Below are positions 8,720-33,076 of a stretch of 64,000 bases of DNA, in pieces (the first letter of the stretch is position 1; each line of letters starts with the position of its first letter). The position numbers were made by a program, and so were the translations under genes. This DNA comes from Fimicolochytrium jonesii (Eukaryota), in contig NW_026515680.1 in the NCBI RefSeq assembly GCF_025526975.1, positions 124,001-188,000 of the forward strand, in the 5' to 3' direction. The notes below the pieces were generated by a model. It was not told the origin of the DNA. It did no database searches and saw only the letters and a list, made by a program, of their open reading frames with translations.

Positions 8720-10428
8720 ATGTCCAACATGGGTCTCGTAGTGAACATCCTCATATTCGGGGTAGCGGTGAGCATTCCCGCAGCGGTCAACTACGAAACA
8801 AAGGGCCAGCTGCCTGACCTCGCTGCTACAACATGCCTGCTGCTGCTTACGCTCATAGTGTTTCGCTTGCTCGGTGTGCCTACGCTCGTGGAGAGTCTGT
8901 CCCAGATTGACGAGGTGTGCAGCACACAACCTGAAGTTGTAGAACTGCAAAGCAAATTCGACAGCAAGCTTTTAGAGGAGGAGTGTGACGTTGTGGAATC
9001 GCAGGAAGAAGACGTGGAGGAAAATATATCAGTCTATGAAGAAGGGGAAGTGGTAGTAGAAGATGAGGCCGTAGAGGAAGCTACATCAAAAGTCGAAAGC
9101 AGCGTTGAACTCAGCGAGGACTCCGCCGCCGAAGAGCTTTCGGACTGCTCTACACCTGTCCCAGTCAGAAACCTCGAGAAGCGATTGGCACGCGCACCCA
9201 GCGACGTTTCCTCAGCCGACAGCGCCATCGCCGATATCCACGACCCATACATATGCCAGCTCCCAGCGCTCGAAGCGGAATTCATCTCGCTGGCCGATAC
9301 TAAACGATCACCTGAGTCATGGGAGACCATTCTTGCGCAGAGTTGGGGCAAGTTCTCGATCGAGATTCATCGACGGGTTGGCAGCCAGTTCTTGTTCCGG
9401 TACATTATGCATTTGGAGGCTACGCCTGAGGAGGCGATTGATCTGTTGGCGGATGTCACGCGGCGCCCTGTGTGGGATGAGCTGTGTGACGAGGCTGGGG
9501 TGGTGGAAAAGGTTTCTGACAGAACGACCGTTCAGGTAGGTTTGGAGATTGATTTGCGTGCATGTTCTCTCACATACGCATGGATCAGCGAGACTAATCC
9601 ACATCCCGTTTCGATCCGTAGTACTTCCGCACGAAAGCAGCATGGCCCACCAAATCCCGCTGCGCCCTCGTAGTCTCGTTCAACAAACAACTCTCACCGC
9701 GCCGCTACCTCAACGTCTCCAAATCCATTAACACACACCCCTCCTTCCACGCCAACTCCGCCGACGTCCGCATGATCGCCCACATCGCCGGTCAACTCGT
9801 CGAGCCGGACGCCGCAGGCCGCGACCGGATGTGCCGCGTCGTGCAGGTTGTCGATGGGGATCTGGGCGGATGGTTGCCGAAAAGCGTTGTCAATATGGTC
9901 ACCATCAACGCGATACCCGTGGGCATGCGGAAGGCTAACAAGATGTTGAAGGGGATTGAAGTTCAACGGGATGTTTCGGAGGTTATGACTGAGGCTGAGG
10001 GTGGATTTTATCAGGCTGGTAGCGATAGCGACGCGAGCAGCCAAACTACACCGGTGTCTGCACGCAAGGGCAGGATGAACGTAATCACTAGCAAGGCGAA
10101 AAGCTGCCAAACTACACCGGTGTCTCCACGCAAGCGCATGATGACGGCATCCGTTCCCATCTCGCCCGTGACTGCAATAGCAGCCAAAGCGGCGCACATG
10201 CAATCCGATACCATCGCTACTGTCTCCACCAGACCAACCACAGAACAACACACCGAATCATCATCACTCCCAACGAACAAAGCGCTGACCACCCGCACAA
10301 CCGCCCAAGCAATCCTCTTAAAACGCCCCAACGTCCTCCGCTTCATCCTCACCATCCTCCGGCGATCACAGCCGTGGATCATCGTATCGATCTTGCTTGC
10401 GATCGTCACCGGGCGATTCAAGCGATGA
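8720..10428 (+). CDS. START (StAR-related lipid transfer) domain membrane protein
   Basis: N-terminal hydrophobic helices, then acidic linker. START-type motifs 'DLLADVTRRPVWDELCDEAGVVEKVSDRTTVQ|YFRTKAAWPTKSR' and 'VDGDLGGWLPKSVVN'; intron ~9536-9620; C-terminal hydrophobic anchor. Confidence 0.82.
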
Positions 10429-12220
10429 GCTCGAAATACATGTCCCCATACCGCCCACCCAGGTCAAGGGCCCACGTATTCCCATTGACTGCTAGAGCAG
10501 CAAAACCGCCCCAAACCTGTCTAAGACGTTATATACCCTACTCCCAGCCAATTTTGAAAGTACACTACATTAGTATTGGTCGCGTCCCCGTCTCTGCGTT
10601 CCCCAGGTTCTCTTATTTTTGTGCGTCGCTTGGCCGACATCCTTTTAGAAGTTCTGTGAGGTATACTTGGCATGTATTCATTCAGTTACATGGCAATAAA
10701 AATGCAAGTTCTATGACTATGAATTAGGTTGCGAAGAAGGTATGAAATTGGTGAGCCAGGGGTGCTGAGAGGGAACTAAACTCTTACAGCCCGGCTCTAT
10801 CGACGAAAACGGAAGTGTGAAGATAATAGAGACCTTATGTTCCGCTCATATAGAAGCCGTTCGAAAATTGCGGCCACACCGTAACTGCTCCGCGACCGTC
10901 GAAGGCGAGTCGCGAGAGAGGCAAGGCATTCGTCCCGTTTTCACGGTCGTCCCCCCCACCGACGTAAGAAATCGATTCCCGCCGGAGCCCCATTTCAGCT
11001 TCTTCTCGCCATCGCGTGACTCGGCAGTCTGAAGCTTCACATTACACTTCACATTACACATTACACATATGGACGGTTCCGATGTGACGCTAGGATCGGT
11101 GGCATCAATTGACCACCTAGGCGCGCTCGCTTTGTGCCTCAACGTCCTGCTCCCTCAGATACCTCATCCTTTGTTGTGCATTCATGTCGCCCCTCAGTAA
11201 GCGCGTCAATCGCATCTTATTGTATGCCGTGAAAAAAAGAGGGAACTTAGCCTGACATTTCCAGCTGCATCAAAATCAATGGAAATCGCGGCACATAATA
11301 CACAAAACGAAAAGGAAAGGAGGAAAAGCCTGCAACAAACACAAACACCTGATGCGGGACTTACATCCTTGGGCTGGATGGTCTCCCTCCCAGCGGGGAC
11401 GGCGGCCACATTCACGTCAGACGTAAGAGCTCGGGTGGAGGCAAGCTTGATGCAGGATGTCGGTCGCGTCCATTGACCACCTGGGCGCGCTTGTCTTCTT
11501 CTCGTTCACCCAGACGTTAGCTCCGCCGGCTTTAAAATACCGGCATATGAACGACCGCGGCACAATGGCACCGGCCCCCACAGGGCTATTGTGATGAAGC
11601 GTTTCCGCTGCCGCAATCTCGTTAGGGTCGCGACGGCCGAGGCCACCAGCGACGCTTTACTGTGGGCGCCTCTCCATCGCAGCGGCCGGCCGTCCTCATC
11701 AAACATCTTATCCTTGGCGCAGGGAGAACATCCGTAGTTAACTTTTCGGCTCTGGTCTCCCGCTCTGGTCCATGAATATCACCGCATTGGCGCAAAAAAT
11801 GTCAAGGCACGGATTAATGCCAGGAAAGAGTTGCGTGATTGTGATTGCAATTGCTGCGAGCTCTTTTAGCAACTAGAATGTGGCAGTTTCTGCGTCTTGC
11901 ATATCCGTCCCAGCTCCGATACAATGGTTTCCTGCATCGTAGTAAGCGCATCTGCCTGATCATCGTGGTCGTCTTCCGGCTCGTCGGGATCCGCTCCTCC
12001 TCGCATGTTGTTTGTAACCGAGAGAAAAAGGCGGAATGAGGTAAGCCACGGCAAGGGCATGACATTTCGCCACCGTCCTCCAGCAAGCATACATTCCTGT
12101 ACAGTAGTGCACATAGCAACCCCATCGCCAACCCTTCGAAAGCGGCCCTATGCAAGAATAGATAGCGAGTAGAAATCCAGATTTTTCCTTGTGGTTCGGG
12201 AGAGCGATATTTGATCGAAT

Positions 12221-12840
12221 CTACAACTCGGCATCCCCGATTTTCCTCTTTACAGAATCCCGTACTTTGTTTTGCATGTACATTGAATGCACATAACGAT
12301 TGCCCCTCGAGTAGTCGGTCACTGAATGATGAAGAAGATCGGCTCGGAACAGGGTTAAGGTACCCACTTCCTGCTTCAGAACAACACCTGCATCGATGCG
12401 TTCAAAATCTCCCCCATCGCCGAAGTCGCCAAAGGTGTACTGAGTGGTGAAACCCTTGTCCTCCACATCGAAGTGGCAATCAACTGTCGGATTCCAAATG
12501 TGGGTATGTGATTTCTGCCAGACACCCTACTCCGCGTGTGTTCGATCGTATCGCACATTGAGAACAATCTGCAATGCCTACGTGAGGCAATGCTTGTCTC
12601 TGAGGTGGGAAATTACCGTCACAAAGAGGGCAATGTGCCAGCGTTCCAAGTGCGTGGCGCTGATCATCTCAGCTCAAGCAGATGCGAACCCTGCCATCAT
12701 CGTTGAAGGCTTCCAAAGGAACATAAAGACTTCTAATCGCAGCTCGGGCACGTCCACCTTGCTTTTCCGCGTGTACGAATCTTCACACTTAAGTACCTTG
12801 ATAGCGTTTGAAAGTGCCCGCCCGTTATAGAGCGCCTTGT
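12221..12840 (-). pseudogene. TET/JBP-family 2OG-Fe(II) dioxygenase, disrupted
   Basis: NPTVDCHFDVEDKGFTTQYTFGDFGDGGDFERIDAGVVLKQEVGTLTLFRADLLHHSVTDYSRGNRY: HxD at 12467-12475, GDF..GG, distal H and R. Same frame upstream carries in-frame stops. Confidence 0.75.
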
Positions 12841-14635
12841 TCTTCTTCTTCGTCAGATTACGGCAGTGGTCGTCGTACTGCCTCGATATCCTGTGCGGAT
12901 CGCCCCGTAATCGAACAACGGTTGCGTAAAAGAACAGCCGTCGCGGAAATAATCTTCACAACGTGTCCAGGGCCCTCTGCAAGGTCGCGCTCATCACCAC
13001 GGTAATGAGGAGGGTTCCCTTTCCCCTTGCGCTTCGTGGTGGCGGTGCGCAGGCCAGCCATGAGCAGGTCCCATTCCGCCGTCGTATCCAACTCCTCGTT
13101 GGCCCACCAATTGTAAGGAAACTTCTCCCCGGCTTCGAGCCATCCACAGACATCACATCAAACTTTACCAAACGAACGTTTCCTGATAACTCTGCTGGAG
13201 ATCTCGCCGGGGTGGTTGCAGCTGTTACTTCCGCCGGTGTACCGGGTTCTTCCTCGACAGGATCGCTGAAGAATGTGCAGAAAAACTGGGTGACGAGCCC
13301 TTGTTCCGTGCTTGCGCAGAGCACGGCGATGTCTTCGATGTTCTTGCCCAACACGGCCCAGGTGTGGGCTGTCGGGTAGGTCGTTGCGACATCCTGGGGC
13401 ATAGCTGCGTCAATGGTGGAAAGAACTCTCGCCTTGATCACCAATAGCATCGCATATGGGCAGCGCATTGTCATGGCGATTGGCAAGGCACTTTTTCGGC
13501 AATCTGCAATCTATCGATGGCGTTAATATCGATGATCTGACCGTTGTTTGCTTGGGCCACGAACGGCTCGTATGAATAGGGCTCGGATGGATCGACGTTG
13601 GGAATCTCATCATCCATGATGAACATTGTTGCGCGATCCACAAACCATCCATGCTCGTTCAGCTTAGTGTTTCTCTCGATAACGCTGATGTTATACTGGA
13701 CGGATGGGAGCGCTCTCGAGAATGGTATCTTGACGAAGAACTCGCCAACGATTTTCATAATGACCTTTCTTGAAAGGTGAAGTCCCGTTCGTCTCGTCAA
13801 CTGAAGATGACCTTGATGAAAGGAAGATTCCCTCGCACGATGACATCAACACGGCCGCGCTCTCATCCTTGCTAGAACTTGATCGAGCTCATATCGACAT
13901 CCACAAGTGTAGAATATTGGTTATCGCCGTAAATTGGTTGGTTGTGCTTGCATCGTCTTCTTAGCTAGCGCTCGTTTCCCTGACGAGGAAGCCGTCAAGA
14001 TCGTCGTTACCGGCCTCGTGATCGTTGCGGGTGCAGCCTGAGCTATGCGAGTGCAGGGGGACTTCGGCCCCTTTCGCTCAAGGCTGAGAGATGCTCTGAC
14101 CGTGTCGACCATCCATTGCTATCAAAGCAGGTATAGATCATCGGCAGTTGAGAACGATGTCGCTTCAGGAGAAGCTCGGTACCGATGTGGATGGTCCAAT
14201 AAGAGCGTCCGCTGTGACCTACTAGCTGGCCCGCCAGGTGTCGCAGCAGCCCCAGGCGCACCACAAGTTTTCCCCAATCGGACGATCTGTTGCTGCATTT
14301 CGGGCTTGGCGGCCACATTGCATATCGGAATTTCTCCGACAACATCGAGTTTGTGCGCTGTGGCAGAGAGGACAGTATCGTAGCTCGCGCTCCACGGTAA
14401 GAGCCCTTTTCTTGGCGGAGCTGATCAGACTTTTGAGCTCGTCGTCCGATGAGCACGACCCCATCCAATCTCCCGATCCCGCAATCTGGGTGATCGATCA
14501 AATAGGTGGAGTAGCGTTCAGAGTAGCGTTTCTCCTGGGCAGCAATGCTCTTGCTTTGCGCATGGCCCGTGCTGAATAGAAACTATGTTAAGCAACTCCA
14601 CCACAAACTTGAAGTTGTTGACCACAAAGTTCTGC

Positions 14636-14968
14636 TTACCCTTCTGTTTCGGGTTTAAATGCCGAGACGTGAATTATTGCGTCCGCAAAGTCGGACCACT
14701 GTTGTAGGATTTCTCTCGTGTCCTTGACGTCGTATCCGCAGTCATTGAGCGCTTCTTTGATGGATTTGAGGTAGATGCGGGGGTATTCCGCTTGAAGTGT
14801 CCAAGCTAGTCGCTCGAGACGGGCTTCATTCTCGCGCCTCTTCCTCTCGATTTCGGAGTCTTCGGCAGTTAGCTGCCGTCGCCCTTTTTTCGAGGAAACG
14901 CTAAAAGGGTTAATAGCCAAGGCTCCCTCAGCGCGGCGAGCAATGGCTCGAGGTTCCCTCCGAACCAA
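14636..14968 (-). pseudogene. Fragment with CUE-like ubiquitin-binding domain
   Basis: LAWTLQAEYPRIYLKSIKEALNDCGYDVKDTREIL fits the L..(M/E)(F/Y)P......I...L.....DV......L pattern. Confidence 0.5.
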
Positions 14969-17493
14969 GGCGGTGGTCTCGGCGGGCTGTTCCTCATCAC
15001 CGTCGTAGAATTCCTCCTCCTTATCATCACCCTCCTCTTTAACACGCGCAGGACTGTCGTCCTCATATTCTTCGACCCTTGATGCGAGCCCAGATCATGT
15101 ACCCGGGTCCATAGAGGATCGCAATCTTGGGGCTGCAAAGCCACGTAAGATAAAGGCAATGCTTGTCGTTTATGAGTGCATAAGGCACCGAGACCGAGAC
15201 AGCGCTTAATCCCGCGATCGGGTGCAGAATCTCTTCACCGGGCCGAAGAAGAAGCATGCCCCCCCCCCCCCCCCTCCCCCGCTCCCGGAAAGAGAGTGGG
15301 GGGGGGGGTGATTGCTCTGATCGTAAGAAGACGTAAGCGATGTGATTCCGCCATCCTGGTGTATACTGGTTGGTGAGGTCGAATTCTTGCAAAGTCTTCT
15401 ACCCGTCGGCGAGCGCGGGGTCCATGGACTTTTGGTCGTGCCATGTCGATAGCGTACCATTTGCGGAGAACGCGGGTCATCCTTTCGCTGGTCGGAGGAA
15501 AGCCCGTATCCTTGTTGAAAGACGGCCAGAATGGGCACTAGCTCTCCTTCTTCGTGGCCGTACACCAGGATATTTCCGGCCACCTCGCGGTAGCCAAGGG
15601 CGTCCTCCTCAGCGTTAGTGCGGAGATGGGCGTCCGCGGGGAGACCATCTGCTTCGGTGGGTTTCCTGCAGAGATTGCGCTTGACGTTGAAGTTGCTCAC
15701 GTAGATCTGCGTCTCAGCAGACCATCTGGCTAGCTCATTGGTCAAGCAGGCTCCGTACCGCTTTTCGTCCATGTCGCAATGGGCGCTGAAGAATCGTTCC
15801 ATCAGATTTGGCGTGGACACCATGGCAGTGTACGGTCCTGGCTGTCGCGTAGATGGCATGACGCAGAGTGGCTGTTCGAGATGTCGGTGACCATGACTTG
15901 CTGTGCTTGCAGATGTATCAAGCTTTGGCGATCAGAGTAAATCATCGGAACGGTCAGCCAATGAGGCTTCGATCGTGGATTGTGCTCGTAAGTTGTGAGG
16001 AATCTCGGGAGCTCCCCCTCCTCCGGCTCCGCCTCCACGGGGCGGAGCACCTGGACCGGCATCCCCACCGTTTCCGTCACCGTCACTCTCTTCATCCGAG
16101 GACGACTCTTCCATGTGCTTCTTTAAGTACGCGAGTCGTTTCTTCAATTTATCCCTCTCGTTTCGCTCGGCCGCGTCGCTGCGGCGCTTTGCTTCCTTCA
16201 TCTTTTCCTTCGATACACACTCTTGCTCTTATACCTCGACTCCGACACTGCCTTGCAACCCAGGTAGTCCGCCTTAACCATCAACGCCTCGAAAGACCCC
16301 TTCTTCTTCTTTGATCTCGAGAACCTCTCTTGCGTCGTCGCCAGATGCTTTGCCAGGTTTTTGTGGTTGTCTTTCCGGTACCGCAGCGTCGCAATCTCGG
16401 TCGCCACTCGCAATGCTTCTCTTACACGGTCGGGAAGTCACTCGCGGCTGCAGCGGAGGATGCGCGCGTCGAGCGCGTAGTTGGTTTCGAGGGTCCCGGC
16501 GGTGGTACAGCTGGAGGAAAGCTCGGCTTCAGAGTCTTGCGGGCTGTCTGCTTCTTCTTGCCGTCTTTGCCGTCCCCGCTCTTTCTTGCCACCGTTCGCC
16601 ATACTTTCGCGTATCGACTGGTTGTCTGGGTTACTGGAGTTGAGTATGGGAACGTTGGTCTTAGCTCTCTGGGGCGACTGTCAGACGTCTGTTGTTTTAT
16701 ACTTGCGGCGTTTCCCTCGCCAAACATTGGGGCCTGTTTTGTTGGAGAACGTCAGCCGTAAAAGTGGTCGGGAATATGACTGGGTTGAGTATGGTCCTGT
16801 GCAAGCGGGCACAGCCCTTGAACTGGAGCTCTTCTTCGGAATCTGAATTGGGATCGTATTCGGAATACGTGCGTCGTCGATGTGGTGAAAAGAACAGCAG
16901 GATGGTTCTTATGATTCGTAATGTCAAAATCCTCACATTTAACGAGAGCTGAGAGTTCTTGTTCGCCGGTATCTAGCACAATTGGGGATATGGGACGGCG
17001 GTGGCTACTTGAGCTAGCTCACCGACATCTTCTTTTCTGCCATAAGGAGGTATGCATGTAGCAAGTGATGCAGGAGGACAGCGAGCAGTTGAGATCGAGA
17101 TCGGGCTGGATCCTTCATCGCCTTGCTGATATTGATATAAAAGCCCGTCTGTTTCCCCGTGCTCCTAAAACCCGATGTGGCAGTGCTCTTTTCCAGCTTC
17201 CGTCGTCTCCGTCGCCACCGTCGTCCATACCAGCCGCTAGTGCCTCATCGACTAGCTGAGTAGCCGGCGTCGTGATGATCCACTCCATATGTGGTAAACC
17301 CTGTCCTCGACGTGCGGTTGCAGGCTCGTCCCTTTCCATCTGATCAAAGCCTATTCCCGTGTAGTCGGTTAACTCGTTTTCGAATGCTTGGGTTCGGGCG
17401 GGTGCTATACCAGGCGTACCAACCGGCTGCATTTACTGTCCCCTCGACAACCCTATTCTGGAAGGCCTGCAGCGCAGCGGAGAAGTCGCCTGG

Positions 17494-17587
17494 GCCCACA
17501 GCACTCCAGTGGTGTTGCAAGCCCAGAGCACTTCAGTGGTGTTGCAAAGCCCCCGGCACTTCAGTGGGGTTGCAAAGACCATAGCAC
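17494..17587 (+). repeat. Tandem 27-28 bp repeat, 3 copies plus a partial
   Basis: gcccacagcactccagtggtgttgcaa / gcccagagcacttcagtggtgttgcaaa / gcccccggcacttcagtggggttgcaaa / gaccatagcac. Confidence 0.9.
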
Positions 17588-19263
17588 GGTACGTTGGTTG
17601 TCAGATTCCATAGCTCTCCAAAGTCCTTAGGCATTCCTCGGGATTGCAAAGTCGTCTGCACCGCCAGGATCCTCGACAATCGCTCCCGATGGTCTACGCT
17701 TTCCCCCACAAGTCGGGCGTGATCGGAGAAAGCGCAGACCATTGGCAGACCTGCCGTATAGACGACGGGAACAGCGCATCGTCAGCACCCCACGCCCCCT
17801 CCTCTCCTTGAGTGATGTCGCCGCTCTCCGTCTCCCCATGCGAGCTGGCCTCCTCTGTCTCCATGCCGGAGATCTCCTCCTCCTCCGTCTCCTCGGCCTC
17901 GTCATCCTCACTGGGGGTATAGGTTGACCCCCCAAGCTCGCTTTCCCTGCTGGCAGATGGCGAGGTCACGGGGGCCGTCGACCTGGTGGTCCGGCGAGTT
18001 GGTGACACCGGTTCGGGGGAGGTTTCCGGAACAAACTCCGTGCCTTCCGACTCTGACTCTACGCTGGTCACCTCGTCGGACAGGACCCGTTCAAAACGAG
18101 TACGCTTACAAGGGGTGGGACGAGCCATGGTGAGGGTTGGTGCGGTGGAGAGGGGATGTGAAACGGGGAGTGTAGCGATCGCAGCGGAAGTGAGGAGGGT
18201 CGCGAACGGGAAACCAAGGTACGATTCAATGAGATCACAGGCATCCTCGATGGACTCTGCGCTAAGCAACCGCTCCTGCAGTGTTTGAAGCGGTCCCATC
18301 AAGCCTCGGTCTTTGATGAATTTCCAGAAAAGCTTGGCGAGTTTCTGGCAATCGGGTGCCGATGAAACTAGGCCTTCTCCATCCAAGCATTGGAGAAGCC
18401 CGCCGTCCCGGTAGCATTCTCATATGCCCTTTACCTCTGCAGTTCCTCCATTCGCCGACGCTCCTGCTCCAGGCGCTCCTTTAGAGCGCGGGTTGTAGCC
18501 GCCCTAACCCGGCGTCTTTCCTCTGCCTCAGCTTGCTCACGGGCGGCCTGCTCTCGCAATTCCGCCATGCGTTGGGTGACCTGCTCTAATTCGGCTTGGA
18601 GGGCGGCAGCCTCGGCCTCGGAGTCGTTGGTGTGGTGGACGTTATTGCTCATGTTGATGTCAAGTAAGATGATGTATTGATGTATGTACTGATCGGATGA
18701 GGAGAAGAGGAACTGAGAGAACCACCCCGCCTTTTATAGACTTTCCCCCAGGCCGCCGTCATTTGCCCCCGGATACAAGCCCCCACTGCTCATCATCCGG
18801 ACGGTCCTCATCCTCCAGGTTGTAGTAGCGTCGCAGTGTGTGGACACGTCATCAAGTACTTGGACAGCTCTTCCCTCGTAGATGCCGGCCGACGGCAGCT
18901 CACATCGGCTTTGTTTGAAACGCGCGTACGAGTTTACGTCGGTGAGGATAGCGCTATTTCCCATACTCATGGACGAGCTGAGGGCGTGTCCGAGTGCTGA
19001 TCGGATGGAGGCCCGAGGAGGGTGTGCCCGTTGTGCCGAAGCGCAGGCAAGGAAGCGGTACGGCGCAGGATGTGACGGCCTGTGTGTTGCTTGTGACGGC
19101 GCATCCACTTCTTCTTGTGTTTGCAGTTGTAGAATCCGAGTTTTGAGACTTCTGTGTCATGGGGTTCCACAGGGGGCCCGTCCTCTTCATAACCGGGCAT
19201 CCCGTAGACTTTGACATTCTCGTAAGAGTCTGGAGCAATGCTGTTGAGGGCATGGATCCGGTT

Positions 19264-19692
19264 CTCCTCCCAGTTGGCCAGGATCCGTCCACCGTAAATT
19301 GTCATCCGGTGAACCAACACATTGCGAAACTGTGCATGCGTCAGTGCTACCAGAATTCGCTTGTTCATTGGGATCAATGGATTAGGTTTTCGCTTGACCC
19401 AGACGTGGAAGTCAAACTTCGACAGTATGACTACGTCAGATTTGGCGAGGAAGTCGGCGGTGTGTTTGTGCATCAACTTGATCTCCTTTTCCAGTCTACC
19501 GCGGAGCTCCTGGACCTGCTCCCGTTCAGATTTGCATTCCTGTTGCTCTAGGCTTGTTTTGAGGGAGGGAATGCTGTGACGCAGTTCATCGTATCGCTGG
19601 CGTGTCTCAGCAAGGTCTTCTGCTGTGACAGCCCCGCTGCCCATGTAGACCGGAGCGAAGTGGTCTGAATCGTGTGTGATTACGATTGGCTC
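19264..19692 (-). pseudogene. Fanzor/IS607-TnpB-like RuvC nuclease fragment
   Basis: RYDELRHSI...ELRGRLEKEIKLMHKHTADFLAKSDVVILSKFDFHVWVKRKPNPLIPMNKRILVALTHAQFRNVLVHRMTIYGGRILANWEE follows the Fanzor2/TnpB pattern (R..I...V.E.H...A.FL....D.I.L.KF....M.......R.L....H..FR..L.....G..V....E). Zn ribbon and RuvC-III are absent. Confidence 0.72.
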
Positions 19693-19693
19693 T

Positions 19694-19950
19694 GACGATG
19701 ACAGGATCGGTCCAGATGTCGCCGACTCCCTGCAAATCCGTGACCAAATCCTCCTGGCCCGAGAACTCATACGTCATATGAGTGAAAGCATGGGGCGTAT
19801 TCCTATAGTTTTTAGTGTTGATACCGCCCCCGTTGGAGGAGTGACGTTCGAACGTTCCGGCAAGGTACTCGTCGAGTGCGTACCATTTGCGCTCGCTGAC
19901 GGATTCGGGAACTAGGGAAGCGGCCTCTCCCGTTGCAGTAGCTGCGAGGT
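19694..19950 (-). pseudogene. Alpha-kinase (eEF2K/MHCK family) catalytic fragment
   Basis: Frame without a start codon (not in the ORF track): WYALDEYLAGTFERHSSNGGGINTKNYRNTPHAFTHMTYEFSGQEDLVTDLQGVGDIWTDPVI, matching alpha-kinase 'RNTPQAFSHFTYE.S....LV.D.QGVGD..TDP.I'. Confidence 0.85.
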
Positions 19951-20333
19951 TAGGAGGCCCAGAGGAGCGTGTGGTGTCCAGTCGCTAGGGCTTTATTGCG
20001 ACTGGACGTTGGCAAAACCCTGTTCGGTGGGGGTTTCCTTGACATCGATGTTGGCGGCGCGGGTAGTTTTCGGGTTTTTATTGGGGCAGGCTGTTGATGG
20101 AGGAGGTGGGGGACGTGGTTGCTGCTGCTCCTGACAGGAGGAATCCAACACCTCATAATGCGCTGGTTGCTGGCAAGTGATGAAGACATGGCCGATGGCA
20201 TATCTGGCCAACTGTAGCTCGTTCCGGGTCACGGTGGCGGGCCAGAGCTTCATGTAAGGAAGAAAAGTATGACGTCAACGGCTTATTGATAAACGTCTCA
20301 TGGCTCAGCATCGTCCGTACTTCCTTCCGTCGT

Positions 20334-20558
20334 TCACGCCGTTCGTTTCAGTTCAGCTATCTCTTCCTTTAGCTTTGCGTTCTCGTCTTCCAAAATCTTA
20401 AGTCTCTCCGTATGTTCCTTTACCTTTGCGTTCTCGTCATCCAAAATCTTAAGTCTCTTCACAACAACCGTATGCATCTCACTAATCATACTGCCCATTT
20501 GATGATCGGCAACAGACGCATCCGAACTTGCTCGGAGGGGACAGCCGCTCAACATCAA
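20334..20558 (-). CDS. Short coiled-coil ORF with internal 51-bp duplication
   Basis: KRLKILDDENAKVKEHTERLKILEDENAKLKEEI; duplicated tttgcgttctcgtc(t/a)tccaaaatcttaagtctct. Confidence 0.35.
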   Translation of the reverse strand: MMLSGCPLRASSDASVADHQMGSMISEMHTVVVKRLKILDDENAKVKEHTERLKILEDENAKLKEEIAELKRTA

Positions 20559-21136
20559 AGGTTCGCGACGCAGCTGGTCAATGGAACCGACGAGTCGCAG
20601 AAAATAGCTCCTCCACTTCCGCTCCGATTACATGTCAACCCCACTGCGGATACACCTGCCAGGAAAAAAAAGCTCACCGCGTCTGCAGCACACTTCGCTC
20701 GAATGGCTCATAATAGCTTGTCAAGTACGCCACGCACCCCAATGACATTTCCTTCAACAGCATGAGTGCGGTGAAGGGCGGACGTCGGTATGCGACGTGT
20801 AATCCGTAGCACACTCCGAATCCAAATCCGAAGCAACTCAGAGGTACTGTTGACCAGTAGAGTCTCTTATGCTTGAGTTGCGCACGATGCGAAAGTTGTG
20901 GCAAACTTGGCAACATTTGCTGCAGATGTGCTACACGAGAGGGGATGCCTTGCCGGAACACCTCCACCTTAACTTGCAGTCTGGTGGCCTCATAGGCATG
21001 TCAGTTGGAATCGTAAAAGAAGTGGTTTCCGTTGACCAAGTCGACCCAGTAAAGGACAAAGTGATGGGCACGCGCTCCGTTTGAGCACCCTCGGGGTCTT
21101 GTATGGACGGATGATGGCCTTCGTGGCGTAGTGCAT

Positions 21137-21805
21137 ACCGCCCATCCCGAAACAATCGTCACGCTTGTCCATGGACACCTGCGACAGCACGTCCATGTCG
21201 GTCAAGGTGATCCTCTTGATTTCCTCATACAAGACTCGTGTCCCGCCGTCAATTTTGATTCCCTTGGGAACAATGCAAGAGATAAGCTGGCAGCGGAACT
21301 TGTACGTCTTGGATGCCGGGGGCGGGGCGAGAGGGGTGTCGCGGCCCACATCGTACGCCGGGTCGCTGACGTCGTAGGCGTTGCTTCTCGGATCCCTCTG
21401 AAGTTGGCGTACAAGACGCATGTCGGTTACCCTCAGCGTCTGCCGTGCCGCATGGAACATGGGCAGCCAGGCGTCCGTTAACAGCGAGATGAGCATATCT
21501 TCCGCTCCCACCTGAAGGGCCTCGAGGGCCCCCGGCTGCCACATGTGCGGGTCCGTCAAGCTCACATTGTTGTCAAGTTCGCGGACAAGACGGCCGAATG
21601 GAGCCCGCGGGATAATGGGCTCCGTTCGGCGCTGCTGCTGCCGTATTTCCCGTAGAGCAACTGATAAACAGGTTGATGGAGACGGAAAATGAGATGCCTT
21701 GCTTTCGCTTTCAAATCGGAGCAAAAGAAACAAAAGCAGAAGGATACTCACGAGTTCCAGACGATAACGACAAGGACGACCCCCACGACCCCCGCGACCT
21801 CGACG
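21137..21805 (-). pseudogene. Divergent histone H3 fused to an eroded histone H4-like domain (intron 21751-21661; 1-nt deletion before the intron)
   Basis: RPCRYR(P)GT|LALREIRQQQRRTEPIIPRAPFGRLVRE..WQPGALEALQVGAEDMLISLLTDAWLPMFHAARQTLRVTDMRLVRQL is an H3 fold. Downstream in frame: ISCIVPKGIK..GGTRVLYEEI-KRITLTDMDVL..CFGMGG, resembling H4 IQGITKPAIR..GGVKRISGLIYEET..KRKTVTAMDVV..LYGFGG. Confidence 0.8.
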
Positions 21806-21994
21806 TCAATGTTTCGACAGCCACCTACTTGCACATCGGGCACCTTCCAAGTGCTTCATTGTCTTGGAATAGCAAGTTCTGGAAGCCTCCTCTGCCTCGA
21901 CCTCCGCGACGACCTCCGCGACGACCTCCGCTCCATGATGATCGTCAGGTCCCTCTTCATCGCCTCCTGATCGGTACGCATGGCCTTCAGGTTG

Positions 21995-22056
21995 TCACCA
22001 AGCTCCTGTATGGCGCTGGTCATGTTCACCAAGCTCCTGCATGGCGCTGGTCATGT
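21995..22056 (+). repeat. 31-bp tandem duplication that frameshifts the minus-strand coiled-coil ORF 21995-22336
   Basis: tcaccaagctcctg(t/c)atggcgctggtcatgt x2. Confidence 0.85.
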
Positions 22057-23116
22057 TCGCGAAGGTCTGCATGATGTCGGAGGATGCAAAGGCCCGGAGC
22101 TGATCCACCGCCGCGAGGACCTCTTTCTTGTTTTCGATGATTTGTGCCAACAGCTCGGTAGTATTCATTGTCAGCACGTCGAAATCCCGCTTGGTCTGGT
22201 TCCGGAGGGATTCCATCGCCGCAAGCATCCTGGCGGCACTCGTCGCCATCTTTCTTATCATTTCCTTTTTCTCGTTCGATGTGTGGGTGGCGAAATCATC
22301 TGAATCTTGCTTGATATCCTCCTTGTGCGCTTGCACTCCTCCCGTACTTTGTTCAGGATGGTCAGGACCTTGTCCTCCACAAGACCGCCGAGGTTCCGTA
22401 CCATGGTGCGGAAGTACACGAGCGCCAGGGGAGATTTTTACCGAACAACCTCAGCCGCCGTGGCTAGCAGGCGGAGAGTTTCCTCACGGATCGCGTGCAT
22501 ACGGGCGCGACGTTCAGCCGCCTGCCATTGCCTGCGTTCTTCTGCCGCTTGCTGTGCCTCGTGGAGGAGGGCAGTGTCTTAGCCAGCGCAGCTTGAGCGC
22601 TGGCGGACGCGGTCGGAGGGTGTGAAGACAGATTATCTTTCACCAGCATCGATTTGGGTTTCGTCACCCACCCCGCTCCGAATCAACATCAGGCCAAACA
22701 CAGTGAAGCGAAAGGATGAAGGTGAACCCCAAGGAATGCATCCTCAGAATTAACCTTCCTCCGTCCGCTCATCCGGGCCTCCTGCTGCCGAATGTCGGTA
22801 GGTGTGGGAGGTAGAGGTGGGAAACGATCGACTTCCAATTGGGTTTTCGGGAACTTCAGCGCAGCGTTTTTAACCCAAAGCCCCCCCCCCCCCTCCATCC
22901 TGGATCATAAGTTTGCATACGTGCAAGCCTGAATACATAATAATTGCAGGTAGATGCGTGTGTGAAATCCGCATCCCGATTGATCAGTTGAAGATCCGGC
23001 TCGGTGATCTTGAGATGGCCCAGCTCTCCATGCTGAAATAGATTCGGGTGATTCGCTTTGTCTTCATCTGTCCACTTCAGATCGGCTTGCCGGCCCTCCC
23101 CCCTCGCCGAATGTCG

Positions 23117-23458
23117 TCAGAACATTCGAACGAGGGATACGAAGCACCCATTACATATGTGATGGGTGCCACACGAGCTGACAGTGCGGCACGAGATCCA
23201 AGTGCCGCATATGCAACAATTATGGTTGCTGCGTCCCGGGTTGAAGTAAATGGGCCAGCGGTCCCTAAGAGAAACAGTCAATACCCGTTTATCAGTTGGA
23301 TTACCCCTTCGCCACACCTACCGACAAATGGCACAGCGTGGTTGCCTATGCAAAAAGGTCACCATCTCCTGGACGATGCACGTGCGGCAGTAGAGGTGCC
23401 CGCACCGACCGCAGTGGTTACCGGGGTTGGTTAGACACACGGGACAGGTTGGGGGCAT
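23117..23458 (-). CDS. Small C3HC4 RING finger protein with a second partial RING-like motif (intron 23321-23265)
   Basis: Spliced product MPPTCPVCLTNPGNHCGRCGHLYCRTCIVQEMVTFLHRQPRCAICR|DRWPIYFNPGRSNHNCCICGTWISCRTVSSCGTHHICNGCF; intron gtaggt...attgac...ttag. Confidence 0.75.
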
Positions 23459-26267
23459 TTTGTCGGTGTGGTGGATGTTGAAGAAGAGGGGTGTGAAGTT
23501 GACTGTTATGGGGACGAGAGTGGAAGAGTTGGACAGCCTGACTTTTGGACAGCTCGAGTCGGGGGAGTGTTATCCTTGTATCGGCTCGGGAGCATGACTT
23601 CCTTGATGTCTCTCCTCCCCACTCGGTATGGTCGGCCTGTCTGAGGTGTCCAGGCTTTGCAACGGGCCCTGCCCCTTGATTGTGTCCGTGTCGTGCGTAA
23701 GCTTCCCCCCCTTATATTCTGCTATTTGCTCCCTGATTGTATCAGCTGCTCGCTGGATTACGAACGTGAAGACATCTGGGGTGTCGGAAGCCCATCGTTG
23801 CCTATGGTCGGACTGGTTGAATTAGTGCTGAGCCCTTGCACGACGTCGGGCCTTTGACCATCGTCCCTGCGCGGCCGTTTCCTGGGTGGACCAAGTTCGT
23901 CCGACGATCGTTCCTATGAAGTAACAACGTGAGCGATTGAGATGTTGGCCATGAACACCGTGGTGCTCCGATATGCGTACTGAGGTAACTGTTCTCGCTC
24001 TGTGGGCGGAAGGCCGATGTCGCTATTGCACTGAACGCATCGCTGCATGCCATCTGTCGCTGTTCTCGAAAATATCCTCGTCCTCGTTGATGACCTCGGA
24101 CGAAGGGTAACGAAATCCCTCGACAACCGTGTCCTGGAAGGACACGCCCGGGTGCTCGACCGTGGAGTATACGAAGGTTCCGCAAGTTCTCGAGATGTTC
24201 TGAGGGTCTGGCATCCACTTGATTTCCAAGTCTGTGAATGCTGTTTCCTTCTTGCGAGCCGCCTGCAAGTCCGCTGTGCGGAGCCCCTGATGTTCCCTCA
24301 GTAATGACCACATCGTGGTACAGATGAGCCCAGGATTGTAGAACCTTCCTAGATTCACAAAGCGATGACCTGGGACGAGGAGACTCCGCATGGATCTCAT
24401 CGGCAGGTGCCAGGTCGATGTGTGAAGATACTCTTAAGGGCGTCTTGAGAGAATATACGACCATGTCAATGTGATCCACTGACGGATCACTGGGCACGAG
24501 AGCAATTCCAACATCGGCGGGTGTCCGAGGTAACGATCCGTTATGACCGAATTCAGCTTGTGACCGAGGAAAGCCAGTTCGAGCAACGGGAAGACGATGC
24601 CGGTGTACTTGTACCATACCTCCCCTTCGGGCTCAACCTTTCCCGAGGTCACATAAGTCAGGAAACTTTCTTTCTGCCAAGTTTCAGATATTTCTGCGCT
24701 TGCTTGACGAGTCCTGCATTTGCAACCCGAGACGGACTCACTCGCAGAATCGCTGGCACATACCCAGGGACGCTCCTTCTTCACAACAGCATCGCCGCCT
24801 GTACCGATAAGCGTGGAAAGTGCCCAGAAGTTGTCGCCGAAAAGCTCCCATAACGCTTCCCGCTGCTTGTGGGTCATCAGCTTGTGGAGGCGTAATTTTG
24901 TCAGATGCGAGATGTAACGTTTGAGCTCGCTGAATGTGTCTCCGTCTAAGTTGGCGAGCGAACGGATGCACTTCCCGCGAAGGCGACCAATGGTCGCGAT
25001 GTCTTCCGAAGCGATGATGAAAGACCTCACGGCGTCTCGATTTCGTCGGCACACCGCAAGGGCGCGGCGGCGGTGCGACTGGCTCGGGGGTACTGTCCTC
25101 ATGAAGGGGCGGCGTCTCCTGAGTAGGCAGAGCATTCGGTTAGAGGCAAGTGAGGTCATTTATGCGCGACTAACGTGCCTACCGAGCGTTGCTCTTCCTT
25201 TTCCTTTGAACTAGGACCGGTGGTCGGACCAGCGGCTCGTTTACCCTTCCCCTTTGCGAGCGTGGCAAGAGTGGTGGGGGTAGCAGCGGAAGTATGAGCC
25301 ATACTGAGTGTTATGGCGAGTGTAAGGAAGTGCTTATGGAGGGAAGCGACTGGTGGAACTCATGACATGCGGTATCAAAGGCCCAGGGGAAGAGAACGCT
25401 TTTTGCAGTTGTTAGACCGCGTTGTCCCCACCAATTTTTTCGCTGCAAGCGCTTGAGAAGTAGCGCTTGAGACGTGGTGGAGAGAGTGCATAGCTTCAGC
25501 CGCTGGCTGTTGCTGGAACAGACAGCCCGATTGAAGTTCAGAATGTGCTTGGAAGGGGAGGCCATCCGCCTGTCGGTATGGAGTGTGCCAACGGGCGTAC
25601 AAAGCGGGACACAGTCTTGGTTGAGGAATATTCGACCGAGAACCTCTTGATGCCCCGATCGATCGCACAATTGACCGTAGGAGCGCTGCGTCATGGCGAG
25701 CGGTCAGAGAGATATTGTAATGGGTCTCTCCAGCGAGGACGGAGAAACGTTGGATGGACCGCCCGATGTAGATGAATTTTATTGACTGACACCTGTCGAA
25801 AGTTGCAGAGTGAGGCTCGTGTTTCCAAGAGGAGCAACAGGCTCGTGGGGTCGTTGTCTGGGAGAGCTCTCCCTATAGTTCTCCCGGTCGAGAGGGTGTT
25901 CAGATAGAGGGAGAAGTATCGCTATGGCTGCCAGTCGGTCGTAGATCGGTCTGAGATGGGGTTGTTGCGAAGGCCATCATCGAGAGGGGGGAGCCACTAT
26001 TGAATGCGAGGTCGTGTGCCACATGCGCCACGCCCGCGCCACTCGCTGTGGCTTGTTTCTCCCTTTCGCCTCTTTCCGCCCTCCCGCTCTGTGCGGTCCC
26101 CTTCTGGCTGGAAGTTTTCTGAACACCCACCCACCCCCCTTGGAGACTCATTGGACCGCCGCATACGGACTCATAGTGCCCACCTGCAAGGCTCCAGTAC
26201 TCCTCCCACAGAAAAGTCATAAGCGGGTCTATCTACAGTCCCTGGTTATCACAACACAGTCGCAACA

Positions 26268-28017
26268 ATGGGCAAGTCGTCGAAAGCAGAAACCAAACCC
26301 CAGGAGGTCGACTATATGATCAAGCCCTCCTCCGTCACACCGGCGCTGGACACCTCTGACTGGCCTTTGCTCCTCAAGGTGGGTTAGCAACTCGTTGGGG
26401 ATTTTGAGTAAGGGAGGAGTTGTGTGAAGGAGGCTAATTTCCCTTCCACGCCCGCTAGAACTACGACAAACTGAATGTTCGCACTGGACACTACACCCCC
26501 ATTCCCAACGGTTGCTCGCCACTGAAACGTGACATTGAGAACTACGTCAAATACGGTGTGATTAACCTCGACAAACCCGCCAACCCATCGTCCCACGAAG
26601 TTGTCGCATGGATTCGTAGGATTCTGAGGGCCGAAAAGACCGGTCACTCTGGAACCCTTGACCCTAAGGTTACGGGATGTTTGATTGTTTGCATTGACCG
26701 TGCTACTCGTTTGGTCAAGTCGCAACAGGGTGCTGGTGCGTTACTTCCAGGATCACGTCGTCAAATGCGGGGAATCACCTCGGCTAACGTTTGCTCATGA
26801 TCCATAGGAAAGGAGTATGTTGCCGTCCTCCGTCTCCACGATGCCATCGAATCCGAAAAGAAGCTGGCACAATCTCTGGAAACCCTCACGGGAGCCCTCT
26901 TCCAGCGTCCCCCATTGATCTCCGCCGTCAAGCGTCAACTGCGTATCCGTACCATCCACGAGCTCAAGCTCGTCGAGTTCGACAACGACCGCCACCTCGG
27001 GGTGTTTTGGGTCAGCTGTGAGGCCGGTACCTACATCCGTACCCTTTGTGTGCACTTGGGTCTTTTGCTCGGTGTGGGAGGTCACATGCAGGAACTGCGT
27101 CGTGTACGCTCGGGAGCTACGGGAGAGCATGACAACTTGGTGACAATGCACGATATTTTGGACGCTCAGTGGGTGTACGATAACACCAAGGATGGTAGGG
27201 AAACACTATTCTCAATGTATGGTTACGCATGCAAGTACGGCAGCTCACCTTTCCATTTCATATGCACAGAATCTTACCTCCGCCGCGCCATCCGGCCCCT
27301 CGAGTCCCTCCTGACAACCTACAAGCGCATCGTCGTAAAAGACAGCGCGGTCAACGCCATCTGCTACGGCGCCAAGCTCATGATCCCCGGTCTCCTCCGC
27401 TTCGAGTCCGGCGTCGACATCAACGAGGAGGTCGTGCTCATGACCACAAAAGGTGAAGCCATCGCCCTCGCCATCGCCCAGATGTCCACCGCCGAAATGG
27501 CCACCTGCGATCACGGCGTCGTTGCCAAGATCAAGCGTGTCATCATGGAGCGCGATACCTACCCGCGACGATGGGGATTGGGACCGAAAGCTCAGGAGAA
27601 GAAGAAGCTGATCAAGGACGGACACTTGGACAAGTTTGGACGACCTAATGAGACGACGCCTGCGACGTGGAAGAAGGACTTTGTTGACTACTCCGCTGGT
27701 CAAGTCGACACGGCCAAGCCGAAGGTTGACTCGGTCTCGGCGCCGGCGCCGGCGTCTCCCGCCAAGCCGTTGATTGAGGAGGTCAAGTCGAAGAAGAGGA
27801 AAGCGGAGGAGGAGGAGCCATCACCGGAGGGAGATGATAAGGAGAAGAAGAAGAAGAAGAAGAAGAAGGATGCTGAGGGTGATGCTGATGATGTACGTTT
27901 ATGGGGAAGCCGTACCACTTTCTGCGCTTTCCGATGAAGATGCTCACATCATTTTGTTGGATTCAACAGGACAAGACAGAAAAGAAGAAGAAGAAGAAGA
28001 AGTCCAAGGACGAATAA
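26268..28017 (+). CDS. CBF5: H/ACA snoRNP pseudouridine synthase (dyskerin/Cbf5)
   Basis: [57 protein letters not shown] domain; Lys-rich tail. Confidence 0.98.
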
Positions 28018-31500: not shown

Positions 31501-33076
31501 TTTGCGATTGATATAGTACATGACATCCCGCGTAAACTGGGCCGTCCAATCCTCCGGCGTCGACTACCTCCACCTCGTCCTCGTCTCCATGTCCTACCTC
31601 ACGCGCCGCCTGAACATCTCCACACGTTTCATGCTCTCCATCCACGACGAGGTGCGGTTCCTCGTTAAAGACGAGCACGCCATGCTCGCCGCGCTGTGTT
31701 TGCAGATCTCCAACCTATGGGTTCGCGCCATCTTTGCGGAGAGCGTCGGGATCCGCGATTTGCCGTCCTCTGTTGCGTTCTTTTCGTCGGTGGATGTGGA
31801 TCATGTGTTGAGGAAGGAGGTGGATATGGATTGTGTGACGCCGAGTAATACGGTGCCTGTGGCGCCGGGGAAGAGCGTGGATGTGTTTAAGGTCGTGGAG
31901 GAGGTTGAGGAGTGGAAACGCGTGAATGGGGTCACGGGTAGTTTGTGGGCTGGGAAGGAGGTGCCGGGGGTGTTGGCGGTGCAGAAACGGGTGTTGGAGG
32001 ACAAGTTCAGGCAGGAGAGGGAGCGGGAGGCACTTAAGCAGAAACTTGGGCCGCGGTTTGCGACGCTTGTCACTGGCGACGCGACGAAGAAAAGGGAGGG
32101 TAGCGATGCCGATGAGACGCACCTGCGGTTCTTGCAAGCCAAGGAAGCGATGGACAGTGCGCGGATCCGGCTGCAGATGGCGGCGACGAAAGATGAAGCT
32201 GAGGAGGAGTTGCAGACGTATTACAATAGAGTGAAGGCGGTGGCGAGCTTTACGAAGGGCCCCAGACCGAAGATTGAGCGGAACCCGAGGACGGGACCGG
32301 GCGTGGAGGTTGTGGAAAAGGAGGAGGCGGGAGGGGATGCGCGGAAAGGATCGCTGACGGGTGGAGGCGAGCGGAAGGGGGAGACGGTTGGGACTGCGGG
32401 AAAGAGAGCCGTCGAGCGGAAATTGGAAACGAGTGCGAATTCTACGCAGACACGCGATGTGGTTGCCAAATGGAAGGCGGCACAAGCAACGCAGTCATCG
32501 TCGTCGTCGACCCAACCACCCCTCGCGTCCGCTCCACCGAAATCCACGAAATACGCAAGAAAAGCGAAAGCGCGCGAAGTCCGTCTCACAGAAAAAGACG
32601 CGGAGTTTGTGGAGCCCCAAGTGGAACCCCCGCGGCACAGACAGAGGGGAGAACGAGCGCCTGCGCAGACTGGCAACGCGGTGAAGGAGGATACGGCGTC
32701 CTTGTATGGATCGGCTTTTGATAGCATCTCACCGGCGGTCGAGCCCACTCCACCCGCGGAAGCACCGGCACCAAAGGATCCCAACAATTTCGCGTGGGTC
32801 CTTGACCAAACGACGAAGAATGAAGTGCGCCAAAAGGAAGACAAAGCTGAGAAGGTGGAGGAGATCAAAAATAAGACGTATGGGAAACAGAAAAGCTCTT
32901 CGAAACCTACGGACGACGACGACATAGGGCCTGGGCACGTTATCTTTTCGAACCCACGGATTGATGATTGGGACGGGAATGGACGGAAGTACCGGTATCG
33001 TGAGGGTGACCATCATCGCGGAATCCGGATTATCCCACCAGGGGGCACGGGACAATTCATGAGTCGTTTGAGGTGA
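28569..33076 (+). CDS. MIP1: Mitochondrial DNA polymerase gamma
   Basis: Arg-rich presequence; exonuclease motifs LVFDTEV and VGHHVAYDRAR; polymerase motifs GADVDSEELWIA, AKVFNYSRIYGAG and SIHDEVRF; TSRVNWAVQSSGVDYLH. Confidence 0.97.

What the first reader, a model, noticed from the sequence alone, without database searches (positions are those of the whole stretch)
10800..25800. 15-kb decayed island carrying a chromatin-manipulation toolkit plus a Fanzor relic
Seen: between two ordinary host genes lies ~15 kb with no intact conserved gene. Every recognisable fragment is on the minus strand, in this transcription order: unknown ORFs, RING, coiled coil with RGG tract, H3-H4 fusion, alpha-kinase, TnpB/Fanzor RuvC, H3-tail mimic, CUE, TET/JBP dioxygenase. 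Known: TET/JBP genes travel with fungal Kyakuja-Dileera-Zisupton and Plavaka transposons, while fused histones and Fanzor2 occur in nucleocytoplasmic large DNA viruses. Inference: this is one large mobile element or endogenised virus able to package its own chromatin, oxidise methylated DNA and use ubiquitin, possibly to evade silencing. At least two genes carry spliceosomal introns, which suggests a nucleus-resident element. I do not recognise this gene combination as a described element.
Basis: partly seen in the sequence, partly recalled or inferred. Interest (0 to 1): 0.88.

Follow-up and report, generated by a model that had tools for sequence, protein, structure and literature searches.

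The report
Shredded mobile-gene island in a chytrid
A 15-kb gap between two ordinary genes of a chytrid fungus holds short, same-strand pieces of genes for TET-type DNA oxidases, a centromere-like histone, a Fanzor nuclease, an alpha-kinase and a restriction-fold protein; it is likely the dead, deletion-shredded remains of a large jumping element, not a working chromatin toolkit.

Summary
The island is real, but it is wreckage rather than a toolkit. An NCBI gene model named Fimicolochytrium jonesii (a chytrid) matches it letter for letter. Confirmed on the minus strand: RING, an H3-type fold, an alpha-kinase piece, a 107-residue Fanzor/TnpB piece without RuvC-I or zinc finger, and a TET/JBP C-terminus. 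Newly found: a second TET-like piece, a PD-(D/E)xK-fold piece 91% identical to a full-length paralogue on another contig, a DEAH-helicase piece and an SprT-like piece. The histone looks cenH3-like (longer loop 1, Q and F replaced), and the 'RGG tract' is its own N-tail end. The H4 half is only weakly supported (p about 0.005, helix 2 missing). CUE and the H3-tail mimic were not confirmed. All 9 homology-supported pieces are co-oriented and 40-158 codons long. No transposase, integrase, capsid or polymerase, and no termini, were found; composition is host-like. Co-occurrence elsewhere could not be tested because no genome is held. Best reading: the collapsed relic of a large TET-carrying mobile element (0.45), ahead of a serial gene-capture mosaic (0.28) and a giant-virus remnant (0.15).

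The parts
8720..10428 (+). Left flank: host START-domain gene
   Evidence: Pfam START E 2.6e-7
12239..12511 (-). TET/JBP dioxygenase C-terminal piece (HxD 12475-12467, distal H near 12330, R near 12298); no N-terminal part found
   Evidence: 87% to F. jonesii P0009 over 55 aa, 69% to P0008 over 91 aa; P0008 Pfam Tet_JBP E 1.2e-4; Atlas Tet_JBP 0.94 for P0009
12776..13027 (-).
   Evidence: 47% over 85 aa to F. jonesii P0018, which has Pfam Helicase_C and DEAD
13184..13420 (-).
   Evidence: 91% to residues 204-281 of 416-aa P0007 on another contig; model of P0007 matches mitoribosomal PD-(D/E)xK-type proteins Z 9.6 and 8.8, BpuSI Z 7.5, EcoRI Z 5.9, NucC Z 5.5
14572..15094 (-). Acidic/basic ORF with a CUE-like helical motif (14809-14699, unconfirmed) and a GT-AG intron 14639-14572
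   Evidence: no CUE match; intron used by NCBI model P0006
15433..15907 (-). Second TET-like piece (N-terminal region only), from a different subfamily than the 12.5-kb piece
   Evidence: 26% to P0017 residues 85-218, E 8e-7, no match to P0009; TET profile iE 5e-4
17032..17202 (-).
   Evidence: Pfam SprT-like E 4e-4, below the curated cut-off
17694..18128 (-).
   Evidence: no family match; hairpin z -3.9
18431..18652 (-). Intact-looking 73-aa coiled-coil ORF with TATAAAAG at 18738-18731
   Evidence: sequence; not in the protein collection
19288..19608 (-). Fanzor/TnpB piece: bridge helix to just before the rearranged RuvC-II glutamate; no RuvC-I, no C4 finger, no RD
19679..19903 (-). Alpha-kinase piece (N-lobe absent), abutting the Fanzor piece after a frameshift
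   Evidence: Pfam E 4e-20, profile 84-160 of 185; six-frame view
21137..21226 (-). Weak H4-like C-terminal stretch in frame after the H3 fold; helix 2 missing
   Evidence: 8 of 2000 shuffles score as well
21395..21805 (-). cenH3-like histone fold (21664-21395) with a GT-AG intron 21751-21661 and an RGG-rich tail end (21805-21776); frameshifted before the intron
   Evidence: Pfam Histone E 5e-20; top 6 PDB hits are CENP-A chimeras and Cnp1
21809..22682 (-). Coiled-coil region with stops and frameshifts; probably the long N-terminal part of the histone gene (inferred)
   Evidence: six-frame view; only coiled-coil-type weak Pfam hits
23324..23446 (-). C3HC4 RING finger, followed by a stop
   Evidence: Pfam 22.6 bits, cut-off 21
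24023..25300 (-). Orphan gene with intron 25182-25119 and an in-frame stop at 24434-24436; NCBI partial model KAI8820404
   Evidence: only hit among 2038 candidates is this locus's own model P0005; no usable Atlas hit
26268..28017 (+). Right flank: host CBF5/dyskerin
   Evidence: Pfam TruB_N, TruB_C_2, PUA

Best explanation
The island is a string of short, co-oriented gene pieces (TET/JBP twice, cenH3-like histone, alpha-kinase, Fanzor, restriction-fold protein, DEAH helicase, SprT-like, RING) and is likely the non-functional relic of a large nuclear DNA transposon, or a nested pair, that lost most of its length, its transposase and its ends through repeated internal deletions. Shown: identity, partial nature and shared strand of the pieces; introns; close full-length or longer paralogues of two pieces on other contigs. 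Inferred: the parent carried these as whole genes in one direction; deletions butted the survivors together (kinase directly onto Fanzor, restriction-fold piece onto helicase piece onto TET C-terminus); the parent's TET would have oxidised the 5mC that marks transposons in this fungal order, and its Fanzor would have helped it persist. The present locus is predicted to make no active TET, kinase, nuclease or histone.
For: 9 of 9 homology-supported pieces lie on the minus strand (two-sided p 0.004 if independent). Pfam was run on both strands, and the TET, restriction-fold and Fanzor profiles over all six frames. A-T skew is negative in 24 of 31 500-nt windows. The cargo is typical of mobile elements: all TET+ IS3EU families carry TET next to an alpha-kinase gene (PMC12730594), and Fanzors ride on diverse transposons and were first found in Spizellomyces (PMC3627910). 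The restriction-fold family is patchy across chytrids: Borealophlyctis twice, Rhizophlyctis twice, Gaertneriomyces, Thoreauomyces and Chytridiales. 5mC is confined to transposons in Spizellomyces, the same order (PMC12695648). Retained GT-AG introns point to DNA-level events. GC 0.546 against 0.554-0.563 in the flanks, CpG ratio 1.0.
Against: No transposase, integrase or helicase-nuclease piece in Pfam (233 island ORFs), NCBIfam or PHROGs (25 ORFs each). No terminal inverted repeat between the end zones and no matching TAYGG..CCRTA pair. The two close paralogues sit on different contigs, each a singleton at 90% identity, so no sibling element with two of these genes together was seen. Shredding to 75-107-codon pieces while keeping 87-91% protein identity needs many deletions in a short time, which serial capture explains as well. 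In IS3EU the kinase and transposase are in opposite orientations. The protein-database queries that found new pieces were all minus-strand, which inflates the strand count somewhat.
Confidence: 0.45

Rival explanations
1. A non-autonomous capture element (Helitron- or Pack-type) picked up short DNA pieces one after another from genes scattered in the genome, many of them cargo of other transposons; the pieces were never whole here.
For: Sharp-edged 75-107-codon pieces; 87-91% identity to longer paralogues on two different contigs; two different TET subfamilies; introns kept. Helitrons capture fragments sequentially into chimeras (PMC4224331 passages), and TET+ Helitrons exist in fungi.
Against: No hairpin-plus-CTRR end at either boundary (1 internal hit, against 4 in the 38 kb to the right). 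No recognisable housekeeping exons among the pieces, apart from possibly the histone and helicase. A same-strand capture bias is recalled, not seen in the passages read, which include a reverse-orientation example.
Confidence: 0.28
2. The island is the remnant of an integrated giant DNA virus (Mycodnaviridae- or medusavirus-like) that replicated in the nucleus and carried an H3-H4 doublet, Fanzor2 and TET.
For: An isolate of this species has a lone viral capsid gene on a host-like contig (PMC13533422 section 6). Medusavirus stheno has an H3-H4 doublet, and the related medusavirus has introns and a very divergent H4 (PMC9145170). The Fanzor piece was detected with a viral profile. P0009's second Atlas hit is a Nucleocytoviricota TET cluster. 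P0007's best BFVD match is a pandoravirus DUF5898 protein (E 3e-3).
Against: No capsid, polymerase, ATPase or other hallmark piece. Host-like composition. Five scans of IMG/VR with the Fanzor piece, the histone, and the TET and restriction-fold alignments found no relatives. All 10 named non-self relatives are chytrid genome proteins. 'Histone', 'Fanzor' and 'dioxygenase' occur 0 times in the Mycodnaviridae paper's text. The H4 half is weak.
Confidence: 0.15
3. A graveyard of independent insertions and host pseudogenes (including a dead cenH3 copy) piled at one tolerant intergenic site.
For: No termini, no shared mobility gene, unequal divergence from the nearest known paralogue (91%, 87%, 47%, 26%).
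Against: 9 of 9 pieces share a strand; no reverse-transcriptase, gag or transposase debris, which usually dominates such piles (general knowledge).
Confidence: 0.12

Closest known systems
TET+ fungal DNA transposons, especially TET+ IS3EU (Kojima 2025, PMC12730594; Iyer et al. 2014 known only through that paper)
   Same: TET/JBP gene carried with an alpha-kinase gene; fungal nuclear DNA; size in the 8-17 kb range of the consensus cells seen
   Different: Chytrid host ('chytrid' occurs 0 times in that paper's text); no transposase, inverted ends or target duplication; extra histone, Fanzor, restriction-fold, helicase, SprT and RING pieces; everything fragmentary
Fanzor/TnpB (Bao and Jurka 2013, PMC3627910; Jiang 2023, PMC10530073)
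   Same: Significant profile match over the bridge-helix to RuvC-II region; canonical RuvC-II glutamate replaced as in Fanzors
   Different: Only 107 residues align; RuvC-I aspartate, TS-C4 finger and RD are absent; cannot be a nuclease; Fanzor1 versus Fanzor2 not resolved
cenH3/CENP-A histone variants (criteria as quoted in PMC4359364)
   Same: Loop 1 two residues longer than canonical H3; Q replaced by G and F by W; long divergent N-terminal region; top PDB hits are CENP-A chimeras and Cnp1
   Different: The threonine at position 118 is kept; gene is frameshifted; an in-frame C-terminal extension weakly resembles H4; no tree was built
Medusavirus stheno H3-H4 doublet; Mycodnaviridae endogenous giant viruses
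   Same: H3-then-H4 order, if the H4 half is real; introns; zoosporic fungal host known to carry a capsid remnant
   Different: No viral hallmark gene; host-like composition; H4 half lacks helix 2
Gene-capturing Helitrons
   Same: Chimeric string of intron-retaining gene fragments with paralogues elsewhere
   Different: No Helitron terminus or RepHel piece found

Membership tests
TET/JBP dioxygenase | HxD...H...R 2OG-Fe(II) motif | tested here: met
   HFD, LLHH and GNR at 12475, 12337 and 12304; H and D invariant in alignment A2
TET/JBP dioxygenase | Belongs to the TET/JBP clade rather than other 2OG-Fe enzymes | tested here: met
   Via close relatives: P0008 Pfam Tet_JBP E 1.2e-4, below the cut-off; P0009 Atlas 25 of 30 hits Tet_JBP. 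The PDB profile search ranks a PKHD hydroxylase (E 0.001) above NgTet1 (E 0.1)
TET/JBP dioxygenase | Complete catalytic domain at this locus | tested here: not met
   Only profile positions 311-399 of 434 at 12.5 kb; the 15.7-kb piece covers 63-175 and does not match P0009
TET/JBP dioxygenase | Oxidises 5mC or thymine in DNA | not testable with these tools
   needs an assay on a complete paralogue
Fanzor/TnpB | Homology to the RuvC lobe | tested here: met
   27.4 bits, E 2e-7, unique in 2700 sequences; shuffles reach 4.6. The profile's seeds were found with a recalled motif, but the three seeds were left out of it
Fanzor/TnpB | D-X(125,275)-[TS][TS]xx-C4 finger-X(5,50)-RD (PMC3627910) | tested here: not met
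   RuvC-I, C4 finger and RD absent; no PF07282 or PF01385 hit
Fanzor/TnpB | Omega-RNA at the 3' end | not tested
   only a single-strand fold of 18860-19000 was run, z 0.3
cenH3/CENP-A | Longer loop 1 | tested here: met
   query 2-88 aligns to canonical H3 46-130 (2 extra residues) and without gaps to CENP-A chimeras
cenH3/CENP-A | Q69 and F85 absent | tested here: met
   G and W at these positions
cenH3/CENP-A | T118 absent | tested here: not met
   T kept in the printed alignments
cenH3/CENP-A | Groups with cenH3 in a tree; localises to centromeres | not tested
   no chytrid H3/cenH3 set was held
H3-H4 histone doublet | Second complete H4 fold in frame | tested here: not met
   only the last 30 H4 residues align (p about 0.004-0.007); helix 2 missing; no Pfam or PDB hit
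TET+ IS3EU transposon | TET and alpha-kinase genes together | tested here: met
   pieces of both within 8 kb
TET+ IS3EU transposon | TIRs over 30 bp ending TAYGG..CCRTA, 6-bp target duplication | tested here: not met
   no inverted repeat of 12 nt or more between the end zones; no matching pair in self-BLAST; ends may have been lost
TET+ IS3EU, KDZ or Plavaka transposon | DDE transposase gene | tested here: inconclusive
   no Pfam hit in 233 ORFs; about 84% of the island, including the orphan at 24.0-25.3 kb, is unassigned
Helitron | 3' hairpin plus CTRR at the element end | tested here: not met
   none at either boundary; Helitron2-type ends were not scanned
Mycodnaviridae / NCLDV endogenous element | Hallmark genes (capsid, PolB, A32, D5) | tested here: inconclusive
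   no Pfam or PHROG hit, but GVOG profiles were not available
Mycodnaviridae / NCLDV endogenous element | Composition and intron density unlike the host | tested here: not met
   GC 0.546 vs 0.554-0.563; three GT-AG introns
CUE domain | Profile or structure match | tested here: inconclusive
   no match at E up to 10; resemblance by eye only

The most novel reading that the evidence does not exclude
Chytrid genomes harbour an undescribed large mobile element that carries its own cenH3-like histone fused to an H4-like tail, together with two TET/JBP enzymes, a Fanzor, an alpha-kinase and a restriction-fold nuclease; it would both erase silencing marks and write centromere-like chromatin on itself, and this island is its collapsed copy.
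Probability: 0.22. Interest if true: 0.82.

Novelty: new variant of a known kind. Interest (0 to 1): 0.48.

Why it matters
TET-carrying transposons are catalogued in rusts, mushrooms and truffles. This points to a TET-like family with mobile-element neighbours in chytrids, in an order where 5mC marks transposons, and gives named paralogues (KAI8816781, KAI8817326) from which an intact parent can be sought. A cenH3-like histone as cargo of a mobile element would bear on how selfish DNA might seed centromeres or escape silencing; I did not find it described in the searches run, which did not target that pairing directly. The locus itself is dead, so its value is as a pointer.

Tried and rejected
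No whole genome is held, so sibling copies, termini and the empty site could not be tested. No sequencing run was listed, which is no evidence either way. IMG/VR scans with island queries and both JGI metagenome scans returned no relatives; these need near-exact peptide words, and P0017 and P0019 are JGI proteins that one search did not recover. The word-based search with the histone ORF gave 3 distant H3-type proteins among 627 candidates, none a fusion, lengths 123-392 only. A mixed five-protein profile returned only P0007 and the locus's own 89-aa histone model among 7990 candidates, and missed its own member P0009, so it says little about paralogues of the kinase, Fanzor or histone. The single-sequence fold of the Fanzor ORF was unusable (pLDDT 44). 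phmmer against PDB and tblastn against phages and plasmids gave nothing for it; one of two pairwise tests against viral Fanzors failed (E 0.14; the other E 2e-5). Foldseek on the P0007 model gave no match at E 0.001; the fold call rests on VIA-align Z 5-9.6 rows dominated by one fold. No RIP or CpG-decay signature. 'Fimicolochytrium' occurs in none of 9 searched Fanzor supplement files of PMC10432273 (1 file not searchable). 6 of the Mycodnaviridae supplement files could not be read and may bear on viral gene content. Iyer et al. 2014 is not held. Rejected: reading 12677-13510 as the TET N-terminus (it is helicase and restriction-fold sequence); joining the two TET pieces as one gene (P0009 matches only one); the H3-tail mimic. 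No complex prediction was run.

Full report
Host and setting. The orphan ORF at 24.0-25.1 kb retrieved one protein among 2038 candidates, P0005, named Fimicolochytrium jonesii. It is identical to the window apart from predicted introns, so the window most likely comes from that chytrid (Spizellomycetales). P0006 (KAI8820400) and P0005 (KAI8820404) are NCBI models from the two ends of the island on a 786,645-nt contig; the accession span suggests five models, of which I saw three. The flanks are a START-domain gene and CBF5. GC is 0.546 against 0.554-0.563, with no CpG depletion. No whole genome was held.

What is confirmed. Pfam on all 233 island ORFs of 45 aa or more gave three matches above the curated cut-off, all on the minus strand: alpha-kinase, histone and RING. 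The kinase covers only profile positions 84-160 of 185 and runs, after a frameshift, straight into the Fanzor piece. Library HMMs did not see the Fanzor piece, so I collected viral Fanzor/TnpB proteins. Of 72 loci, 47 gave a usable ORF, 42 were distinct, and 39 remained after removing the three seeds. The profile hit only this ORF among 1350 window ORFs and 1350 reversals (27.4 bits, E 2e-7; best of 1000 shuffles 4.6). The match is 107 residues, from the bridge helix to just before the rearranged RuvC-II glutamate. The defining D...TS-C4...RD motif (PMC3627910, passages) is not met.

What the sensitive search added. One frame of 12224-15823, read with X at stops, was scored against 1.84 billion representatives and gave 16 hits. 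One is the locus's own model. Nine belong to a Pfam-less family: 8 are named chytrid proteins and 1 is unnamed. The window holds only residues 204-281 of the 416-aa F. jonesii paralogue P0007, at 91% identity, and P0007 lies on a 414-kb contig. Its model (pLDDT 62) aligns with PD-(D/E)xK-fold proteins. Five hits are TET-like. The window holds only the C-terminal 91 codons, 87% identical over 55 residues to F. jonesii P0009 on a 327-kb contig. P0009 falls among Tet_JBP clusters in the Atlas and P0008 matches Pfam Tet_JBP at E 1.2e-4. One hit is a DEAH helicase (47% over 85 aa). A second TET-like piece, N-terminal only, lies at 15.4-15.9 kb; it matches P0017 but not P0009, so it comes from another subfamily. 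An SprT-like piece at 17.0-17.2 kb scores E 4e-4.

The histone. The fold is H3-type, but its six best PDB matches are CENP-A chimeras and Cnp1. It has a loop 1 two residues longer than canonical H3 and lacks the canonical Q and F, while T118 is kept (criteria from PMC4359364, passages). The RGG tract and an RYR motif sit directly before a 91-nt GT-AG intron, in register with the H3 sequence that precedes the alpha-N helix, so the 'coiled coil with RGG' is probably this gene's own N-terminal region; the gene is frameshifted there. The H4 half is weak. Against an H4 fetched from IMG/VR only the last 30 residues align, 8 of 2000 shuffles do as well, and helix 2 is absent. CUE and the H3-tail mimic found no support.

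Architecture. Nine pieces have homology support. They are 40-158 codons long, cover about 16% of the island and all lie on the minus strand; A-T skew agrees in 24 of 31 windows. No terminal inverted repeat, IS3EU-type end pair or Helitron1 end was found at the boundaries, and no transposase or viral hallmark gene. Introns are retained, which argues for DNA-level events.

Mechanism. The most likely history (0.45) is a large, co-oriented, multi-gene DNA element that inserted between START and CBF5 and then collapsed by internal deletions. The cargo fits. All TET+ IS3EU families pair TET with an alpha-kinase (PMC12730594: parts 1-3 of 7 of the text, passages, and part 1 of 20 of the supplement). 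Fanzors travel on many transposons. In Spizellomyces 5mC is confined to transposons (PMC12695648, passages), which gives a TET passenger a purpose. Serial fragment capture (0.28) explains the sharp, high-identity pieces and their scattered paralogues equally well but has no terminus to show. A giant-virus remnant (0.15) has circumstantial support: a lone capsid gene in an isolate of this species (PMC13533422, section 6 and passages) and the H3-H4 doublet of medusavirus stheno (PMC9145170, passages). It lacks hallmark genes and any IMG/VR relative. An accidental pile (0.12) fits the shared strand poorly. Under every reading the locus today is predicted to be inactive.

Novelty. TET-carrying fungal transposons are known, and earlier unchecked notes of this scan list several more in other genomes. 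'Chytrid' and 'Fanzor' do not occur in the 2025 survey's text, and searches listed no paper describing this combination. A cenH3-like histone in such company is the unusual part. But co-occurrence at a second locus, the test that would make this an element rather than a heap, could not be run, so the finding is a new variant with a moderate score.

Noticed in passing
window 18431-18738 (-): An intact-looking 73-aa coiled-coil ORF with a TATAAAAG box about 80 nt upstream, the cleanest gene-like unit in the island; not in the protein collection by exact look-up.
   Followed up: partly
window 17683-17748, 23144-23169, 15264-15308: Three hairpins (z -3.9, -2.9, -4.3, the last from C/G runs; picked from self-BLAST, so the z-scores are inflated). 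The first overlaps an ORF's stop codon.
   Followed up: partly
window 11096-11127 and 11460-11491: A 32-nt imperfect direct repeat (87%) near the left end of the island, possibly subterminal.
   Followed up: no
window 17494-17575, 20364-20458, 22010-22060: Short in-frame tandem duplications (27-28 nt three times; 51 nt twice; about 33 nt twice) inside decayed ORFs.
   Followed up: no
P0007 family (alignments A1, A5): A Pfam-less chytrid family of about 350-420 aa with a predicted PD-(D/E)xK fold and invariant SKP.P, GNKGGP and PQD motifs, in at least six chytrid taxa; best viral fold match is a pandoravirus DUF5898 protein. It seems undescribed and is worth its own study.
   Followed up: partly
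window 13489-13776 (-) and 12861-13157 (-): Two further protein-like open stretches with no homologue found, used by NCBI model P0006, which stitches together pieces of unrelated genes.
   Followed up: no
window 28750-33076 (+): Mitochondrial DNA polymerase gamma gene right of CBF5 (Pfam DNApol_Exo E 4e-85); ordinary host gene.
   Followed up: no
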